The notes below the pieces were generated by a model. It made no database searches. It was given only the letters and a program-made list of their open reading frames with translations, and had not been told where the DNA came from. Shown piece by piece: positions 28,585-63,601 of a stretch of 64,000 bases of DNA. The number at the start of each line of letters is the position of its first letter. Within the stretch, counting starts at the first letter, position 1. The stretch lies in NCBI GenBank assembly GCA_964555185.1, contig CAZKRD010000001.1, positions 34,185 to 98,184 of the forward strand. Direction: 5' to 3'. The DNA is from an uncultured Candidatus Saccharibacteria bacterium. Lineage in GTDB: Bacteria > Patescibacteriota > JAQUNI01. A program made the position numbers and the translations under genes.

Positions 28585-29079
28585 TCTATTCTAGCACAAG
28601 TTTTGCAGAAAATAAAAAACCGCGCAAGAGAAGCTATTTTGCTTTTAGCTTTAGCGCGGTAAAATGAGCATTTCTATTATTAGTAATAGATTTTTTGTGA
28701 GAGTATCATTGACATTCTAGAAAGCGCTCCTTGGCCTGCATTTTCGTCCCATCCCTTCAGAGTTTCAATCTTTTCAAGGGTTGGTATAAGATCAAATGGG
28801 CTAGATTTATGTGGTTTACGCAACAGACTTAGTAGTCTTTTGAATCCCCTAATAAACATCTCTATCACCCCTCATGTCTTGAGTGTTACAAAATACTTCA
28901 ACTCATTAGTAATATCGGTATAAAGCGCAATAAGTACTATCTTTTTTACTTTGTAAGATATAAACGAAATACATGATAAAATTACAACACTTGCTCTTTT
29001 TCGTTTCTAGTTAGGTTATGAATTCTTTATTTAGAGTGCTTGCACTCCGAAGCTCCGAACGAAGTGAGGAGCGAAGGGG

Positions 29080-29152
29080 TGGACCCAGCGAGATTCGAAC
29101 TCGCGACCTCGCGCATGCCATGCGTGCGCTCTACCAACTGAGCTATGGGCCC
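29080..29152 (-). tRNA. tRNA-Ala(GGC), G3:U70 present, no encoded CCA.
   Basis: Reverse complement is GGGCCCATAGCTCAGTTGGTAGAGCGCACGCATGGCATGCGCGAGGTCGCGAGTTCGAATCTCGCTGGGTCCA. Anticodon loop ATGGCAT (GGC). Acceptor carries the G3-T70 wobble identity pair. Confidence 0.75.
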
Positions 29153-29264
29153 AAAATAATTAAAAGTTTAAAGTGCCTGCCTTGCCGGTAGGCAGGCAAA
29201 GTTCAAAATTTTTAACTTTAAATTCAACCTTTAACTTTGAATTTTGCACTTTAAACTAAATTAG

Positions 29265-29336
29265 TGGGTCTGGTAGGATTCGAACCTACGACTGACTCGT
29301 TATGAGCGAGCTGCTCTACCACTGAGCTACAGACCC
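29265..29336 (-). tRNA. tRNA-Met(CAT), elongator or Ile-lysidine type, no encoded CCA.
   Basis: Reverse complement is GGGTCTGTAGCTCAGTGGTAGAGCAGCTCGCTCATAACGAGTCAGTCGTAGGTTCGAATCCTACCAGACCCA. Anticodon loop CTCATAA. It lacks the initiator three-G:C anticodon stem. Confidence 0.75.
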
Positions 29337-29339
29337 GGG

Positions 29340-29640
29340 TTTTCAATTTTTAATGGTTCGACTATACTCACCACCTTGAGCTTGCCGAAGGGTTTACTAA
29401 TCAATTTTCAATTTTCAAGTACCAATTTTCAATCAATTTTCAATAACCAATGACTAAATGTTCAAACTGTTTGAAAATTAAATCTATTTGAAAATTGGGA
29501 TTTGATTGAACATTGGTCCTTGTAAATTGGTAATTCAAACAATATTTTCAAGTACCAATGGTTCGACTATGCTTACCACCCTGCTTACCATCCTGAGCTT
29601 GCCGAAGGGTTTTTAAACAATTTCCAATGTTTTAATGTTT
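29340..29640. repeat. Family A repeat, largest copy: a full A unit (29395-29530) flanked by two ggttcgactat...gagcttgccgaagggttt sub-units (29353-29395 and 29562-29615).
   Basis: Direct sequence identity with 24705-24853 and 44407-44555, and with 42171-42367 in reverse. Confidence 0.75.
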
Positions 29641-29645
29641 AATTT

Positions 29646-46418: not shown

Positions 46419-46576
46419 TTAAAGGATTTGAGTTCATTAGATAATTCATTATATCCTTTGTTTGGCCTGTTTGTCAATTTTGGTTTGTTTGACATTTAGA
46501 GTGATTTGTGATATGTTTAGAAGCTGTGAAGTTTGGTAATGTTTGGAATATAGGTAACCAGGAGGAGGTGTGATTG

Positions 46577-47089: not shown

Positions 47090-47446
47090 ATGAGCAGTAA
47101 AAATCATTTTAAAAAACACAAAAGCCGCAAGTTCCGCAAGGCCAAAATAAAATCCCCTCAAAAGAATTATTGGGAGGGTGTGGCCAGTGATCCGGAAGAG
47201 AAAGGTGAACTTGATCGAGTTCCCGAAAGACAGAAACAAAACAGAGAGAAGATTATTAAAGCCCCCCTGTCCAAAGAAGAGCCAGAGGCAAAGACAGAAA
47301 ACAAAGATATTGCTTCAGATTGCAAAAAGGTCTTGACAACTTTTTTGGGGTTTGCTATACTATTATTAGTACTGTGGATAATTAAAATCAAAACTTCTCT
47401 TTTCGATATCGCAGTAGATTACTTTTACAAAATTTTTGCTCTTTGA
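47090..47446 (+). CDS. Hypothetical basic protein with a C-terminal TM anchor.
   Basis: 118 aa with a K-rich N-terminus and a C-terminal hydrophobic helix. Confidence 0.35.
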   Translation: MSSKNHFKKHKSRKFRKAKIKSPQKNYWEGVASDPEEKGELDRVPERQKQNREKIIKAPLSKEEPEAKTENKDIASDCKKVLTTFLGFAILLLVLWIIKIKTSLFDIAVDYFYKIFAL

Positions 47447-48332
47447 TCTTTGAGTGATAATTAGAGTGTCACTCAAACCCTAAAAACAAAAAAGAAAAAA
47501 ACAAAAAGACACGGACGAGTAATGGAAGATAAAACAAAAAGAAAAACAAAAATTATAAAAAACAATTTGCATTTATCCTATTAGGTGTTTGACTTAATAG
47601 GAGGAAGGGCCCTTCCAAGGTTTCGTTTTATGACTGGGCATTTTAGGGGCTAATGGTCGGAAGTTTTTTGTTTATCCAGAATATTTTTTGATTTTAAATA
47701 ATTTAGCCAGTAATCGTAATTTTCCTGTTTCAGGTTCAACCTGAACTGTCACCCCTTGGAATAACCACCCCTTGGAATAATTGAGTCCCCTCTTCTTCAT
47801 TTAAATAATTAAACGTTCTGGGTAAATCATTTTTTGGTTTCAGTTGGTCTTTATTAATCTTGATGTTTTCAAGTTGATCAGGGAATATATTTTTTATTTT
47901 TAAGCCTCCTATAAAATTAAAAATAAAGACACTCCTGATTGGTTAATGCAAATCTCGTTCGGTTTGCAACTCGCCTCAAATTTTGGGTCAATTTCGAGTT
48001 GTCGTGAAATTTGAAAACTGTTTCAGTATTTTTGTGAGGAGATTTTATTTTTTTACTTGTTTGTCGCGAGAAGAAAAAGAATTCTTAAATCCACTATTTT
48101 TATTTACTCGCCGCTCACTGTTAAGACCATGGGTCTTGCCGTGTGATCCCACCGTGAATTCGGAAATACCCTCTGTCCGGTAGGCAGGCTTTGATCGTCC
48201 CTCGACAAGCTCTGGACTCGCTCGTAATGACATTTTGTGAGTTTCCAGATTCACGGATTCCACTTTTGACAATTCATTTGTTTTTTGTTTTTATTTTCAA
48301 GAACCCCTTTAGAACAATTGAGGTAATGGATG

Positions 48333-49757
48333 TTATACATTATATTGACTGTCTTGTAAAGAGGTTAAGGTCCAGATAAAGCCCAAGACAAGCCAAAAGA
48401 TCAATATACCCTGTTGAAGATCATAAAAGTAATGATCAAAAAGCCCGATCAAGCAATAGGCAATAAGAACCGCAGATAAAGTCAAACTTTCAAGTTTGTT
48501 CTTGGAGATTTTAAATCTAAGATAAAAGGTTAAGTAAAGAAAGGTGAGGAAAATTAACAGTCCGGGCAGGCCTATCTCCGCGGCATAAGCAAGGTAGATG
48601 TTATGGACTGGTTGAAAGCGCCAGCCGGGGAAATCAAAACCAAGATAAGAAGAGAGCGCGGGGACAAAGTTTCCGATTCCAATCCCCAAGAGAGGATTTT
48701 TAGAAATGATCAGCAAGCCAAGCTTGTTAAGCAGGATGCGGTTAGAGAGAGCAAAATCTGAATCAGGGGAATCAGTAACTCGCGACCGGGCGGCCAGTTC
48801 AGGCCAAAACAAAACTGATAAAATAATTATCGTGATCATTAAACTTACTATAAGAGGGAAGTAATTTTTTAAAAGAGAATTTTTGAAAATATAAATCAGA
48901 AGCAATCCCAAGATGATTGCGAAACCGAACCAGGCGGTGCGTGAAAAGGTAAGGATCAAGACAAAAACAAAAAATAGGACAGTAAGGATCAATCCACTTT
49001 TCAAAAATAATTTTTGCAGAGACGATTTCTGGCTCGGGCGGAAAATTTTTTGATAGAGCAAAAAGCAAAGCGGAATAACAAAGATCAAGAATCCAGCCAG
49101 AAGGTTGGGGTGGGGAAGCGTGCCATAGCCGCGGATTATTTTTTGACCCTGGACTACGATCTTCGCCACGCCGACAAGTTCTGGCGAGAGATCAGTCTCG
49201 CCGAAGATTTTTAAACCCAGCGAGTGTTGCTTCCAGTATTGGGAAGCAGCAATTACACCTTGAATCAGGCCGCTGAAAATTAGGCTCAAATAAGCCAAAA
49301 AACGGGGTCTTTGTTTTGAAAAATTTTTAACCACAAAAACAAAAAGCAGAATTGCTTCTGAAAGTTTTAAGAGGCGATAGAGGCCAACCTTCAGGTTTGG
49401 GCTTTGGGGCACAGAGAGCAGAGACCAGAGGACGAGGCCAGCTAATAACCAATAACCTACAATCTTCAATCCGCAGTCCCTGGTCCTTGATTTTCTTTGT
49501 TCGGTTTTTTTAAGAAGGGACAATTCTCCAAGCCAAAAGAGAAGAGCAATTCCAAAAATAATATCAGAGAGATATAAACTGATTGCGGTCCATTCATTAA
49601 ATTGCCCCGCGATCGGATCAAAAGAAAAAATATGCCGCTTCTGCCAGGGGAGGACAACGAGGAAGATAAAAAAAGAAAGATATTTTAATTTGGCGAGAAT
49701 GATTTTAATTTTTTCTTTTGACATATGGTGAAAGTAAAATTCTTTAAATTCTACCAC
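48333..49757 (-). CDS. O-antigen ligase / Wzy-like polytopic membrane protein.
   Basis: About 12 TM helices with a large periplasmic loop, the pattern typical of the Wzy_C/O-antigen ligase family. Confidence 0.45.
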   Translation of the reverse strand: MVEFKEFYFHHMSKEKIKIILAKLKYLSFFIFLVVLPWQKRHIFSFDPIAGQFNEWTAISLYLSDIIFGIALLFWLGELSLLKKTEQRKSRTRDCGLKIVGYWLLAGLVLWSLLSVPQSPNLKVGLYRLLKLSEAILLFVFVVKNFSKQRPRFLAYLSLIFSGLIQGVIAASQYWKQHSLGLKIFGETDLSPELVGVAKIVVQGQKIIRGYGTLPHPNLLAGFLIFVIPLCFLLYQKIFRPSQKSSLQKLFLKSGLILTVLFFVFVLILTFSRTAWFGFAIILGLLLIYIFKNSLLKNYFPLIVSLMITIIILSVLFWPELAARSRVTDSPDSDFALSNRILLNKLGLLIISKNPLLGIGIGNFVPALSSYLGFDFPGWRFQPVHNIYLAYAAEIGLPGLLIFLTFLYLTFYLRFKISKNKLESLTLSAVLIAYCLIGLFDHYFYDLQQGILIFWLVLGFIWTLTSLQDSQYNV

Positions 49758-49919: not shown

Positions 49920-50071
49920 CAAGGTACATAATCTAGATTTTTTATTTGGGTTTTGATATAATAATTACAAAACAAAAAGCCAAATCTGAATCAGGAGGGA
50001 TTTGGCTTTGTTTGGTCCTTTTCAAACTTACTTATCTAATCCTGTAACTGGCAACACAAGGAGGAATGGTT

Positions 50072-51556
50072 ATGATTGAGCGATATACAGACGGGAAGAT
50101 TGTTGAAATCTGGTCCGATTCACACAAACTGTCTCTTTGGCAAAAGACAGAACTGGCAGTGATTGAGGCGATGGCCAATTTGGGGCGGATTGAAAGAGGG
50201 GTCTACAGCCGCATCCGTGAGGCCTTGGATGGTAATCCCATAGATATAGAATGGTGGAAACAAAGAGATCAAGAAATTCATCATGATCTTAATGCTTTCC
50301 TTGATGAGCGTGCGCGTTTCTTGGGCGCTGATCTAGAGCAATATTGGCATCAGGGACTCACTTCTTATGATACAGAAGAGCCTGCTTTTGCCAGAATGCT
50401 TCGATCATCACTGCACAGGGTCGAAGCCCATTACGGCAATTTAGTAGAAGCTTTAAAAGAGAAGGCGTGGCAGTATCGTTATGTGATTATGATCGGTCGC
50501 ACCCATGGCCAGGCCGCTCAATTGCAAAGCGCTGGCAAGAGGTTCTTGTGCTGGCTTCAAGATCTTGCTGTAGATGAGGTGAGTTTATTGAAAGCAGGGA
50601 GGAACCTCAAATATTCTAAACTCTCTGGCGCAATTGGCAATTATGGAGGCCTTGATCCTGATTTAGAGAAAGAGGCTTTGCGTGTCTTAGGATTCGAGCC
50701 TTTCTATGGTGCAACTCAAATTATGCCTCGTGAGATGTGCGCACCTTTGGCTCAAGTGCTTTGCCAGCTGGTTTGTACTTTAGACAAAATTGCAGTTGCA
50801 ATACGGTTAGGCGCGAGAAGTCCGCATCCGATCTATCAGGAGCCGTTTGGCCAAAAACACAAAGGCTCTTCTGTTATGCCTCAGAAGAAGAACCCGATCC
50901 GTAGCGAGCAAGTTGAAGGTATGGCTAATATGGCTAAGGCGTATTTGCGGATGATCATGGATAACATCCGCACCTGGGAAGAAAGAGCAATTGAACAGTC
51001 TTGCGTAGAAAGGGTTGCTTGGCCTGATCTTTTCCATATTGTTGTCCATGTGCTCAAAAGAATGGAAAAGGTGCTTCAGGGCTTAGTGATTTATCCTGAC
51101 AATATGCTCTGGGAGATCCATGAAAGCCGAGGATGTTATGCTTCTTCCGAGGCCAAGGAGTTTCTGAAGCGAGAGGGAGTAGAATATGGTCTTAGCGCTG
51201 AAGACGCCTACCGGATTGTGCAGCTTGCTGCTTTTATTGCTTTCGAACCAGGTGATCGTTTGCGAGATTTGCGCACAGACCTGCCTATTTCTCTAGTGGA
51301 AGCAGACCATCTACTTTTAGCTTTCCCGCAGATGCCCAAATCCCCTGATGTTTCTCTATGTTATATTATCAGGGAGGGCCTCTTGAGTATTTCAGAAGAG
51401 CTTGCCGCCACAGAGGAGGAAATAAAAAGGTGGGTAGAGATTTTAGAGAAGATTTTCACTGAACAGGAAAAACGTGATGATTGGAATCGGCTTTTTTTGC
51501 CCTCTTATCTCTTGCGTAATGAGGAAAAACTCTACCAAGAGATTTTGAGTCTATAA
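50072..51556 (+). CDS. purB: Adenylosuccinate lyase.
   Basis: Fumarate-lyase signature GSSVMPQKKNP and a PurB-like N-terminus ERYTDGKIVEIWSD. RBS aaggagg at 7 nt. Confidence 0.8.
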   Translation: MIERYTDGKIVEIWSDSHKLSLWQKTELAVIEAMANLGRIERGVYSRIREALDGNPIDIEWWKQRDQEIHHDLNAFLDERARFLGADLEQYWHQGLTSYDTEEPAFARMLRSSLHRVEAHYGNLVEALKEKAWQYRYVIMIGRTHGQAAQLQSAGKRFLCWLQDLAVDEVSLLKAGRNLKYSKLSGAIGNYGGLDPDLEKEALRVLGFEPFYGATQIMPREMCAPLAQVLCQLVCTLDKIAVAIRLGARSPHPIYQEPFGQKHKGSSVMPQKKNPIRSEQVEGMANMAKAYLRMIMDNIRTWEERAIEQSCVERVAWPDLFHIVVHVLKRMEKVLQGLVIYPDNMLWEIHESRGCYASSEAKEFLKREGVEYGLSAEDAYRIVQLAAFIAFEPGDRLRDLRTDLPISLVEADHLLLAFPQMPKSPDVSLCYIIREGLLSISEELAATEEEIKRWVEILEKIFTEQEKRDDWNRLFLPSYLLRNEEKLYQEILSL

Positions 51557-51573
51557 TTAAGGAGGAATGGATT

Positions 51574-52086
51574 ATGGCTAAAGTTGCGGTTGTTGTAGGT
51601 AGTAAGAGTGACCTTGAGATAGTAAAAGAGTCTGGAATGTTAGAGGTGTTTAACGAAATGGGCGTGCCTATAGAGGTATCGATCATTTCCGCGCACCGTA
51701 ACCCAGATACACTACCGAACTATTGCCAGAAGGTTCTTAAGAGAAATGATGGCCGGGTGATTTTCATTGCCATTGCTGGAATGGCTGCTGCCCTGGCAGG
51801 CGCGATTGCCGCCCATGCCCGGAAAACGTCAGTGATTGGCGTACCTTTGCCTTCCCGAGAAAAACCAGAAGCGGAAGATGCTTTGTACGCTATGCTTCAA
51901 ATGCCCAAAGATGTTCCGGTGGCTGTGCCTGGAATAGGGAAGTCTGGATTATACAAGGCCGCCATCTTGGCTTGCCAGATTTTGGCCCTGACGGATTCAG
52001 ACTATTGGCTCGCACTAGATGGTTTTATTAAAGATCATCATAAAGAGCCCCAGATTGATATTTCGTTATCAGAAGAGGAGGAGTGA
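51574..52086 (+). CDS. purE: Phosphoribosylaminoimidazole carboxylase catalytic subunit / N5-CAIR mutase.
   Basis: MAKVAVVVGSKSDLEIVKE...SAHRNPD...GMAAALAG is the PurE fold signature. RBS aaggagg. Confidence 0.85.
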   Translation: MAKVAVVVGSKSDLEIVKESGMLEVFNEMGVPIEVSIISAHRNPDTLPNYCQKVLKRNDGRVIFIAIAGMAAALAGAIAAHARKTSVIGVPLPSREKPEAEDALYAMLQMPKDVPVAVPGIGKSGLYKAAILACQILALTDSDYWLALDGFIKDHHKEPQIDISLSEEEE

Positions 52087-52089
52087 ACA

Positions 52090-53115
52090 ATGGGAGCAAA
52101 GATTCCAGAAGCAATTCAGGAAACAGCGTTAAGCCGTAAGCTTGCTGCTGCCGGTCTTAATCGAGTTTATCAAGGTAAGGTCCGGGATACTTGTGCCGTA
52201 CCAAGTAATGACAAACTTCTACTGGTTGTTGCTTCAGGTCGTTTGAGTATTTTTGACTTTGTGTTGAATTGCCAGGTGAAAGATAAAGGTCAAATCTTGA
52301 CTGCTCTAACCATCTTCTGGCTGACCACTGTATTGAAAGATACAATACATCACTTGATCGCTTTCGGTGCAGGCATTGATGCGTATTTACCTCCTGACTT
52401 GAGAGGAAATCCAGAGTTGCAAGCCAGAGCCGTGGTGGTCAGAAAACTTGAGATAATATCAGTTGAATGCGTGGTCAGAGGTTGTCTTACGGGTTCGGGT
52501 TGGCGATCCTATCGAATGGATGGCACTGTTTGTGGTCAGAGCTTGCCACCTGGTTTGCATGATGGATCAAGACTAGATAAGCCTATTTTTACACCAACGA
52601 GCAAGGCAGTATTTGGTCATGATCAGCCCATGACTAGGGAGCAGGTAAGGCAGAGACATACAGAAGAGCTAGAAGATTTTAGTTTGGCATACTATAACAC
52701 AGCACGTAGTTATGCTGAAGAACACGATGTCATCATCGCTGATACTAAATTTGAGTTTGGCCGTTTAGACGACGGATCACTCTCTGTTCTTGCTGATGAG
52801 GTAATTACCCCTGATTCATCGCGTTTCTGGGACCGAGAAGAATGGGAAATAGCCCAAAAAGAACAGAGAGCACCTCAAGGTTATGATAAAGAGCCTGTGC
52901 GTCAAGAGGGCAAGGGAGTTGAAACGCCTTTTTCCGGTTTAACTGGTATTCATAGTCTTGATGCGCAGGATGAAGAGCATATCATATTTGTACATCAATG
53001 GAGGGTTCCAAAAGAGGTTCTTTCCGCCACTAGAAAACGTTACCGCACGATCTTTGAACGTTTAACTGGGAGGTCTCTTGAAAGCTTCCAGAGAGATGTG
53101 ATGCACATTGGCTAG
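52090..53115 (+). CDS. purC: Phosphoribosylaminoimidazole-succinocarboxamide (SAICAR) synthase, long form.
   Basis: YQGKVRDTCAV...LLLVVASGRLSIFDFVL...IADTKFEFG are PurC motifs. Confidence 0.8.
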   Translation: MGAKIPEAIQETALSRKLAAAGLNRVYQGKVRDTCAVPSNDKLLLVVASGRLSIFDFVLNCQVKDKGQILTALTIFWLTTVLKDTIHHLIAFGAGIDAYLPPDLRGNPELQARAVVVRKLEIISVECVVRGCLTGSGWRSYRMDGTVCGQSLPPGLHDGSRLDKPIFTPTSKAVFGHDQPMTREQVRQRHTEELEDFSLAYYNTARSYAEEHDVIIADTKFEFGRLDDGSLSVLADEVITPDSSRFWDREEWEIAQKEQRAPQGYDKEPVRQEGKGVETPFSGLTGIHSLDAQDEEHIIFVHQWRVPKEVLSATRKRYRTIFERLTGRSLESFQRDVMHIG

Positions 53116-53189: not shown

Positions 53190-53345
53190 GTGAGCCTGCC
53201 TGCCGGTAGGCAGGGTAGGCAGGGAGAAAGTGAAATTCCTTTTCACTTTATTCGGGATTATTGTCATTACCCGTAGGGGCAACCCTTGTGGTTGCCCGTC
53301 TGTGGCATTTGTTTAGCCGACAATGGGCAACCACAAGGGTTGCCC
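53190..53345. repeat. Family C element, copy 3: cctgcc/ggcagg hairpin, agaaagtgaaattccttttcacttt hairpin, then a 25-bp perfect inverted repeat (gtaggggcaacccttgtggttgccc) around a 27-nt loop.
   Basis: The perfect inverted repeat is visible directly at 53268-53344. Confidence 0.7.
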
Positions 53346-53494
53346 CTACAAAACCGTCCCAGACTAGGTGATATTATTGGCGCATTTAAATCAATGACAA
53401 CCTGTAGTTACATCCAAAATTAAGAATTTCGAGCTTGCTTGATTTGTCTGAATTTTGCTATATTTAAAGAATGAGAATAAGATACTAGAAACAA

Positions 53495-61743: not shown

Positions 61744-61873
61744 TTTTCATTGACAATTTAGTAAAAATAGTATATAATATGAATCTTAGTAAATAAAGTG
61801 GGAGTACTTTTAGGTCGACCTTTACTTTATTTGCTTTTTCAAGATTTTTAAGTAACGCTAAGTTTGACAAAGT

Positions 61874-63410: not shown

Positions 63411-63601
63411 TTTTCCCTCCTCCTTGATATCATGCCCTATGTCATAGCTATTATTCCACTTCAGTTTTCGGATTTTACATTATATCACAATAAATCTATT
63501 TTGTCAATTCTTTGCATAAACTAATATAATCTGGACAAGTATTTGAAAGGGTAGTAGAATATAATTAGCTTTTACAAATTAAATAAAAACAAACAAAAAT
63601 T

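What the first reader, a model, noticed from the sequence alone, without database searches (positions are those of the whole stretch)
47447..48332. 880-bp gene-free island rich in stems and direct repeats: candidate structured ncRNA locus
This is an unusually long non-coding stretch in a dense genome. It contains a 14-nt perfect palindrome after an aggagg (ggaagggcccttcc, followed by gtttcgtttt, which is terminator-like). There is a direct repeat accccttggaataa x2, a caggttcaacctgaactg dyad, and a caactcg...cgagttg stem. Long-range pairing is possible between caccgtgaattcgg and ccagattcacgg (48150-48260). A ccggtaggcagg motif is shared with family C. I could not match it to RNase P RNA, tmRNA, SRP RNA or 6S RNA consensus by eye.
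Basis: seen in the sequence. Interest (0 to 1): 0.55.

Follow-up and report, generated by a model that had tools for sequence, protein, structure and literature searches.

The report
Composite spacer: conserved RNA tail, junk
The 886-bp gene-free gap is not one big structured RNA: about a third of it is a conserved, probably transcribed tail of the upstream gene, and the rest is fast-changing filler that carries a small mobile-element-like insertion.

Summary
The gap (47447-48332) is real. It lies between two convergent genes of a 707-kb Patescibacteria (CPR) scaffold, and public gene callers also leave it empty. It matches no Rfam family, tRNA/tmRNA, Pfam domain or conserved ORF.

Two related species (L020/L008 and L009) show it is composite.

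(1) 47447-~47720 is conserved at 81% with L009, against 66-71% for the flanking genes. A 71-nt run (47593-47663) has no substitution. One hairpin has a compensatory change, and the G·U pairs fit only the + strand. A near-consensus promoter (TTGACA-17-TGnTATACT, 47333-47361) inside the end of the upstream gene is conserved too. Best reading: a ~260-310-nt 3'UTR or 3'UTR-derived small RNA of unknown target.

(2) 47724-48332 cannot be aligned to L009. The "long-range pairing" is the inverted ends of a 103-bp element with an 8-bp flanking duplication, and L020 lacks exactly this element.

With only three species, the covariation support is weak. Modest interest.

The parts
47333..47361 (+). Promoter-like site TTGACA-17-TG(n)TATACT inside the 3' end of the 118-aa CDS, pointing into the conserved flank. 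The predicted transcription start is near 47368.
   Evidence: It scores 11 of 12 with an extended -10. It is one of only 6 sites with at least 11 of 12 in the 64 kb, against 1.85 expected. The other 5 all sit upstream of genes in the right orientation. It is conserved in L020 and in L009 (TTGACA-17-TGT-TATATT) and is absent at that position in L012.
47449..47477 (+). Hairpin 1, starting 3 nt after the stop codon of the 118-aa gene (TTTGAGTGAT / GTCACTCAAA, 9-nt loop).
   Evidence: It has a compensatory A-U to G-C change in L020, and a U·G to U-A change in L009. All cells pair.
47480..47565 (+). A-rich spacer, moderately conserved.
   Evidence: Alignment A5; low-complexity repeats.
47576..47602 (+). 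Hairpin 2: an 11-bp stem TCCTATTAGGT / ACTTAATAGGA with a 5-nt loop.
   Evidence: The stem is kept in all three species while the loop changes (GTTTG versus TTT in L009). An invariant G·U pair and two U·G variants would be A·C mismatches on the - strand.
47603..47631 (+). Hairpin 3: the 14-nt palindrome GGAAGGGCCCTTCC followed by AAGGTTTCGTTTTAT. It looks like a terminator for + strand transcripts.
   Evidence: It is invariant in all three species. The U-rich tail exists only on the + strand. The simple terminator scan did not call it, because 4 nt separate the stem from the T-run.
47593..47663 (+). Ultra-conserved 71-nt run: no substitution and one 1-nt indel against L009. It is followed by a T6 tract at 47664-47669, a second possible transcript end.
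   Evidence: The flanking CDS are only 66-71% identical to L009.
47724..48144 (.). Lineage-specific variable spacer. It holds the dyad (47731-47743), the CACCCCTTGGAATAA x2 repeat (47750-47780) and the caactcg/cgagttg stem (47967-48001).
   Evidence: It cannot be aligned to L009; the forced global alignment gives 52.6%. It is 86% identical to L020, but the dyad and the stem are broken there. L020 also has a different segment of about 297 bp in place of window 47777-47864.
48145..48263 (.). MITE-like insertion: a 103-bp element (48153-48255) with inverted ends CCGTGAATTCGGAAA / TTTCCAGATTCACGG, flanked by an 8-bp duplication GATCCCAC (48145-48152) / GATTCCAC (48256-48263). Inside are CCGGTAGGCAGG (48177-48188) and a 37-44-nt GC-rich module (48188-48231).
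   Evidence: It is absent from L008 and L020. The length difference is exactly 111 bp, which equals 103 + 8. The arms are (I14). The inner module recurs in intergenic DNA of L012 and L015-17 at 86-92% identity.
48259..48332 (-). 74-nt 3' flank of the Wzy_C gene.
   Evidence: It is 98.8% identical to L008. No terminator-like hairpin was found.

Best explanation
The gap is a composite intergenic spacer, not one RNA gene.

Part A (47447 to about 47720, + strand) is a conserved non-coding RNA segment attached to the 118-aa membrane-protein gene. It is transcribed either as that gene's 3'UTR or, more interestingly, from the conserved sigma-70-type promoter at 47333-47361 inside the end of the gene. 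It runs through hairpin 1, an A-rich spacer and hairpin 2. It ends at the GC-rich palindrome plus U-rich tail (about 47630) or at the T6 tract (about 47670). That gives an RNA of roughly 260-310 nt. Its invariant 71-nt core is most likely the functional part, through base-pairing or protein binding. The target is unknown.

Part B (47724-48332) is unconstrained filler between convergent genes. It turns over quickly and collects small GC-rich palindromic repeats.

Shown here: the conservation pattern, the maintained hairpins, the conserved promoter sequence, the indel with inverted ends and duplication, and the absence of a conserved ORF.

Inferred, not shown: that the region is transcribed, the transcript ends, and any regulatory role.
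For: - Synteny and a gap of similar size (887 bp) in L009.
- Identity to L009 is 81% for 47447-47723, against 65.7-70.7% for the neighbouring CDS and 52.6% for 47724-48332.
- A 71-nt run has no substitution against L009.
- All 69 cells of the three hairpins pair on the + strand. There is 1 compensatory and 3 one-sided changes. Seven of the cells are G·U pairs, which would be A·C on the - strand.
- The promoter is conserved in all three species, and sites of this quality are rare and otherwise sit upstream of genes.
- ORFs are not conserved. The 78-aa minus-strand ORF of L020 has an in-frame TAA in the window and a frameshift in L009, and there are about 10 amino-acid changes in about 60 codons. 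There are no homologues or domains.
- The MITE-like indel fits exactly: 111 bp = 103-bp element + 8-bp duplication. Its inner module is dispersed in other CPR loci.
- L020 carries a different GC-rich insertion at another spot of the same gap. That insertion holds a copy of the window's 53195-53224 palindrome.
Against: - Only three species carry the element, so covariation is statistically weak: 172 of 500 shuffles reach the observed values.
- Folding energies are not better than those of shuffled sequence.
- There are no expression data.
- Promoter conservation could partly reflect the conserved amino acids (V-L-T ... I-L) that it overlaps.
- Hairpin 3 is separated from its T-run by AAGG, so the simple terminator scan did not call it.
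- The 103-bp element is single-copy in all sequence available here, and its inverted ends were not found elsewhere. A deletion in L020 between the 8-bp direct repeats would give the same pattern.
- The invariant block could also come from recent transfer between lineages rather than from constraint.
Confidence: 0.6

Rival explanations
1. Part A is only the ordinary 3'UTR and intrinsic terminator of the 118-aa gene. It has no independent RNA and no regulatory role, and the promoter-like site is a by-product of the coding sequence.
For: The hairpins lie directly after the stop codon, and hairpin 3 plus its U-rich tail looks like a terminator. The promoter hexamers overlap conserved codons. The more distant L012 simply has a canonical terminator after its homologous gene.
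Against: A plain terminator does not need 71 invariant nucleotides extending 47 nt past the hairpin, nor about 270 nt conserved above the level of the CDS. The promoter scores 11 of 12 with an extended -10 in all three species, even though neighbouring codons changed. The other 5 sites of this quality are genuine upstream positions.
Confidence: 0.25
2. The invariant block acts as DNA. It could be a protein-binding or recombination site (an attB-like integration site, dif or parS) next to which variable DNA is inserted.
For: An ultra-conserved block directly abuts a highly variable segment. In relatives that segment holds different insertions (L020), or whole genes in the equivalent Wzy_C-to-118-aa-homologue interval, as in L012 with TrmB and others.
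Against: There is no GC-skew inflection and no cluster of DnaA boxes. I saw no resemblance to the dif or parS consensus; that check was by eye and from memory of the consensus, not a computed test. No integrase gene is nearby. The G·U pattern and the compensatory change argue for RNA on the + strand.
Confidence: 0.08
3. One reading: the whole ~880 bp is one long structured non-coding RNA locus.
For: The gap is long, and many short inverted repeats are present.
Against: - Two thirds of the gap is not conserved even at 67% protein-identity distance.
- The flagged stems are broken in L020.
- A 111-bp piece is an indel.
- Folding z-scores are no stronger than -1.2.
- There is no Rfam hit.
Confidence: 0.03
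4. The gap contains a missed or decayed protein-coding gene.
For: JGI called a 78-aa and an 81-aa ORF in the L020 gap. The equivalent Wzy_C-to-118-aa-homologue interval in L012 holds real genes.
Against: - Those ORFs are interrupted by stops in the window and by frameshifts in L009.
- Substitutions are almost all non-synonymous.
- There is no Pfam hit.
- No homologue was found among 5.8 billion proteins, and only one marginal hit among 1.84 billion representatives.
- tblastn with neighbouring proteins of the relatives found nothing.
Confidence: 0.04

Closest known systems
3'UTR-derived small RNAs with their own promoter inside the upstream CDS (the 'type I' class, e.g. DapZ and MicL of enterobacteria; from my own knowledge, not tested here)
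   Same: A strong promoter sits inside the last ~100 nt of a CDS. The transcript would share the gene's 3' end and terminator. The conserved core lies just upstream of or around the terminator hairpin. There is no ORF.
   Different: There is no expression evidence, and no known chaperone or target. It has an unusually long A-rich spacer. It is restricted to three uncultured CPR species. Conservation extends past the first terminator-like hairpin.
Bacterial MITEs and other small repeat elements (e.g. Correia elements, RUP, ERIC, REP/BIME; from my own knowledge)
   Same: It is about 100 bp and non-coding. It has 15-nt imperfect terminal inverted repeats and an 8-bp flanking direct duplication. 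It is present in one species and absent in a sister species, and it sits in an intergenic position.
   Different: Only one copy with these ends is seen in the DNA available. Only an inner 37-44-nt GC-rich module recurs, and in other genomes that module has different flanks. No parent IS or transposase was identified.
Rho-independent (intrinsic) terminators
   Same: A GC-rich hairpin (GGAAG-GGCC-CTTCC) is followed by a U-rich stretch downstream of a gene.
   Different: Four nucleotides (AAGG) separate the stem from the U-run, and the stem has only 5-7 bp. The element sits about 155 nt after the stop codon and is embedded in a much longer invariant block.
TIGR arrays (tandem interspaced guide RNA arrays of the TIGR-Tas system, reported in CPR bacteria; PMC12045711)
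   Same: A gene-free stretch in a CPR genome that contains short repeats and palindromes.
   Different: There is no ~36-nt periodic unit and no alternating 8-12-nt repeats. No Nop-domain Tas gene lies within +/-10 kb.

Membership tests
Any Rfam 15 family (RNase P, tmRNA, SRP, 6S, riboswitches and others) | A covariance-model score at or above the family's gathering threshold | tested here: not met
   At gathering threshold only tRNAs were found, all elsewhere in the window. In E-value mode on 47300-48500 the best hit was 22 bits against a threshold of 60, and all E-values were at least 0.33. L009 and L020 likewise gave nothing in the gap. ARAGORN found no tRNA or tmRNA in the gap.
3'UTR-derived sRNA with internal promoter | A promoter within the 3' part of the upstream CDS, conserved across species | tested here: met
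   TTGACA-17-TGnTATACT at 47333-47361. It is conserved in L020 and L009, and sites of this quality are rare in the window.
3'UTR-derived sRNA with internal promoter | A discrete stable transcript with defined 5' and 3' ends | not testable with these tools
   No RNA-seq data or end mapping were available.
3'UTR-derived sRNA with internal promoter | A conserved non-coding core with a structure supported by covariation | tested here: inconclusive
   The 71-nt run is invariant, and the three hairpins pair in 100% of cells with 1 compensatory change. With only 3 sequences, however, 172 of 500 shuffles do as well.
MITE | Short, non-coding, with terminal inverted repeats | tested here: met
   A 103-bp element whose arms at 48152-48166 and 48242-48256 are 13 of 15 complementary. 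No supported ORF: the one ORF overlapping it (75 aa, TTG start, 48045-48272, minus strand) has no Pfam hit and only one marginal hit among 1.84 billion representative proteins.
MITE | A target-site duplication and an empty site in a related genome | tested here: met
   GATCCCAC and GATTCCAC flank the element. L020 and L008 have a single GGCTCCAC and are 111 bp shorter, which equals 103 + 8.
MITE | Multiple copies with the same ends, or a related autonomous IS | tested here: not met
   The terminal repeat was not found elsewhere in the 64 kb beyond chance level. Only the inner module recurs, in L012 and L015-17. The rest of the 707-kb genome could not be scanned.
Intrinsic terminator | A GC-rich stem-loop immediately followed by a U-tract | tested here: inconclusive
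   The hairpin at 47603-47616 is followed by AAGGTTTCGTTTT. The consensus scan did not call it. It is conserved in all three species.
TIGR or CRISPR array | Periodic repeat-spacer units together with an adjacent effector gene | tested here: not met
   No periodic array was found. No Nop or Cas domains appear in the neighbouring genes. The criteria are taken from PMC12045711.
oriC or dif region | A GC-skew inflection, with a DnaA-box cluster or a dif-like site | tested here: not met
   GC skew is positive across almost the whole window (31 of 32 2-kb bins; the single exception, at 42-44 kb, is -0.008) and shows no turn near the gap. The only DnaA boxes are isolated, with at most 1 mismatch.

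The most novel reading that the evidence does not exclude
Part A is a new, clade-specific riboregulator of CPR bacteria: an independently transcribed RNA of about 300 nt that starts inside the 118-aa gene. Its invariant 71-nt core could switch between two exclusive pairings. One is the GGAAGGG/CCCUUCC hairpin. The other is GGCCCUU with AGGGGCU, as in the RNAalifold consensus. The RNA would control either termination into the antisense of the convergent Wzy_C gene or a trans target.
Probability: 0.25. Interest if true: 0.45.

Novelty: new member of a known kind. Interest (0 to 1): 0.3.

Why it matters
Almost nothing is known about RNA-based regulation in CPR/Patescibacteria, which have tiny genomes and few regulators. 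A non-coding block that is more conserved than its neighbouring genes and has its own conserved promoter is a concrete candidate to test in metatranscriptomes. The presence/absence of the 103-bp element and of the GC-rich palindromes also shows that small mobile repeats reshape intergenic DNA in these reduced genomes. However, the element is known from only three uncultured species and its function is unknown, so the immediate impact is modest.

Tried and rejected
- Rfam, gathering and E-value modes, on the window and on relatives: nothing.
- ARAGORN: no tRNA or tmRNA in the gap.
- Single-sequence folding of 48080-48280 and 47540-47725 on both strands, and of L009: z-scores from +0.1 to -1.2, not informative.
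- Six-frame ORF inspection, Pfam, tblastn of relatives' neighbouring proteins, a homologue search with L020's 78-aa ORF, and a 1.84-billion-representative search with the window's 75-aa ORF: no coding signal.
- oriC/dif idea, raised by the strand switch of the genes: rejected by GC skew and DnaA-box counts.
- TIGR/CRISPR-like array: no periodicity and no effector gene.
- Phage and plasmid BLAST: only a chance 33-nt AT-rich hit.
- Search for more homologues:
  - Genome contigs by Wzy_C gave only a relative at 27% identity.
  - A 20-mer of the core in metagenome contigs found only the L009 contig.
  - nhmmer with the 3-species profile found no copy in the more distant loci L012-L018.
  - The 118-aa protein has only one other homologue cluster.
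- Target prediction by duplex folding against 64 start regions in the window: no better than shuffled cores, and the output looked unreliable.
- The long-range closing helix suggested by RNAalifold (5' end with GGAAGU): either invariant or broken, so not claimed.

Full report
**Setting.** The window comes from a 706,972-bp scaffold of a metagenome-assembled Patescibacteria/CPR genome (ENA ERZ23486238, BAEC19-1 scaffold_1). Identical copies occur in three Logan runs. The finding lies between two convergent genes. Upstream is a 118-aa lysine-rich protein with a C-terminal membrane helix (+, 47090-47446). Downstream is a Wzy_C/O-antigen-ligase-family gene (-, stop at 48333).

**Observation.**
- The gap is 886 bp, and the public gene callers left it empty.
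- It is the second largest non-coding stretch in the 64 kb. The largest contains two tRNAs.
- The region is not thermodynamically unusual. Folding z-scores range from +0.1 to -1.2.
- The terminator scan called nothing inside it.

**Known families.** None matches.
- Rfam 15 gives only tRNAs elsewhere in the window at gathering threshold. In E-value mode on 47300-48500 there is nothing credible; the best hit is 22 bits against a threshold of 60.
- ARAGORN finds no tRNA or tmRNA.
- Pfam finds nothing in any ORF fragment.

**Relatives.** Homologues of the Wzy_C protein and of the 118-aa protein led to two further species with the same gene order.
- L020 (the same species as L008): Wzy_C 93% and 118-aa 90% amino-acid identity.
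- L009 (identical to L010, L011 and L019): Wzy_C 67% identity, with an empty gap of 887 bp.
- More distant relatives (L012, L015-L018, 44-47% identity) have other genes or short spacers there and lack the element.
- No other carriers were found by a 20-mer scan of metagenome contigs, by a genome-contig scan, or by searching with the ORF that JGI called across the block.

**Part A: the conserved third (47447 to about 47720).** Identity to L009 by segment:

| Segment | Identity to L009 |
|---|---|
| 47447-47723 (conserved flank) | 81% |
| 142-aa CDS | 67.2% |
| 118-aa CDS | 65.7% |
| Wzy_C CDS | 70.7% |
| 47724-48332 (rest of the gap, forced alignment) | 52.6% (noise level) |

Within the flank, 47593-47663 (71 nt) has no substitution and a single 1-nt indel.

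Three local hairpins are kept in all three species:
- Hairpin 1 (47449-47477) starts 3 nt after the stop codon. It shows a compensatory A-U to G-C change in L020 and a U·G to U-A change in L009.
- Hairpin 2 (47576-47602) keeps an 11-bp stem while its loop changes.
It is followed by AAGGTTTCGTTTT, with a further T6 tract at 47664-47669.

All 69 stem cells form standard pairs on the + strand. Seven of them are G·U pairs, which would be A·C mismatches on the - strand, so the + strand is the likelier RNA. With three sequences this is not statistically decisive: 172 of 500 shuffles do as well.

No ORF is conserved across the block.
- The 78-aa minus-strand ORF called in L020 has an in-frame TAA in the window and is frameshifted in L009. 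Nearly all of its substitutions change the amino acid.
- The 20-aa and 30-aa ORFs of the window lose their start codon or their frame in L009.

**A promoter pointing into Part A.** The site TTGACA-17-TG(n)TATACT lies at 47333-47361, inside the last ~110 nt of the 118-aa CDS.
- It is one of only six sites with at least 11 of 12 matches in the window, on both strands, against 1.85 +/- 1.5 in shuffles.
- The other five all lie just upstream of genes in the correct orientation. For example, a 12-of-12 site lies at 46448-46477, before the DUF4446 gene.
- The site is identical in L020. In L009 it reads TTGACA-17-TGT-TATATT, although nearby codons differ.
- L012, which lacks the block, lacks this site and has a canonical terminator right after its homologous gene.

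This fits a transcript that starts near 47368 and ends near 47630 or 47670, about 260-310 nt long. I infer transcription; it is not shown.

**Part B: the variable two thirds (47724-48332).** It cannot be aligned to L009. It is about 86% identical to L020, but with large indels.
- In L020 the dyad is broken: CAGGTTCAACCTG becomes ...CCTT.
- In L020 the caactcg/cgagttg stem is also broken: AAACTCG ... CGAATCG.
- The CACCCCTTGGAA repeat exists in L020 but not in L009.
- Right after that repeat, L020 has about 297 bp of unrelated GC-rich sequence where the window has 88 bp. This segment includes a 30-nt copy of the window's palindrome at 53195-53224.

**The GC-rich piece is an insertion.**
- The window has GATCCCAC (48145-48152), then a 103-bp element (48153-48255) with ends CCGTGAATTCGGAAA / TTTCCAGATTCACGG, then GATTCCAC (48256-48263).
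- L020 has one copy, GGCTCCAC, and is exactly 111 bp shorter.
- This is the signature of a MITE-like insertion. Less likely, it is a deletion in L020 between the 8-bp repeats.
- The element's inner 37-44-nt module (TCGTCCCTCGACAAGCTCTGGACTCGCTCGTAATGAC) recurs at 86-92% identity in intergenic DNA of L012 and L015-17, with different flanks.
- The terminal repeat was not found again in the 64 kb, so membership of a true multi-copy MITE family is not established.

**Other ideas tested and dropped.**
- oriC/dif: the genes switch strand here, but GC skew shows no turn at the gap (positive in 31 of 32 2-kb bins) and DnaA boxes do not cluster.
- TIGR/CRISPR-like arrays, which are known from CPR (PMC12045711): no ~36-nt periodicity and no Nop-domain gene nearby.
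- Phage or plasmid origin: no similarity.
- Pseudogenes: no hits.

**Conclusion.** The rest of the described 'structure' is non-conserved filler plus a small mobile-type insertion. The best-supported mechanism for the conserved third is a + strand 3'UTR or 3'UTR-derived small RNA with its own promoter. Its function and target remain unknown. The confidence values in this report separate the composite anatomy, which is fairly secure, from the sRNA role, which is tentative.

Noticed in passing
window 50066-53115; L020 13952-14254: The purB-purE-purC cluster is intact in the window. In the sister species L020 only about 150-nt remnants of the purB upstream region and start, and of the purE start, remain. 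L020 has two other small genes after the tRNA-Arg instead. Purine-synthesis genes are being lost, or were gained, within this CPR clade.
   Followed up: partly
It recurs in relatives at non-homologous places. One copy-like stretch lies inside the lysine-rich C-terminal tail of NusA, where it codes ...PEPQVEG...SPTGRQA.
   Followed up: partly
window 53273-53349: A perfect 25-bp inverted repeat (GTAGGGGCAACCCTTGTGGTTGCCC / its complement) with a 27-nt loop lies in the 379-bp gap between purC and RNase HII. Each arm is itself nearly palindromic.
   Followed up: no
window 28585-29645: This is the largest gene-free stretch of the window (1061 bp). It holds two tRNAs on the - strand, two ~40-nt direct repeats (29340-29378 and 29545-29583...GGTTCGACTAT..CACCACC.TGAGCTTGCCGAAGGG) and a 42-nt imperfect inverted repeat at 29403-29535.
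   Followed up: no
window 46448-46477 (-), 61750-61778 (+), 63479-63507 (-): Perfect 12-of-12 sigma-70 consensus promoters (TTGACA-17/18-TATAAT) sit upstream of genes. This CPR organism therefore appears to use canonical promoters.
   Followed up: partly
L012 13950-13985 (- strand): The more distant relative has a textbook intrinsic terminator (CAGGTTTGAAACCTG followed by a T-run) right after its homologue of the 118-aa gene. More family-C-type GC-rich palindromes follow it.
   Followed up: no
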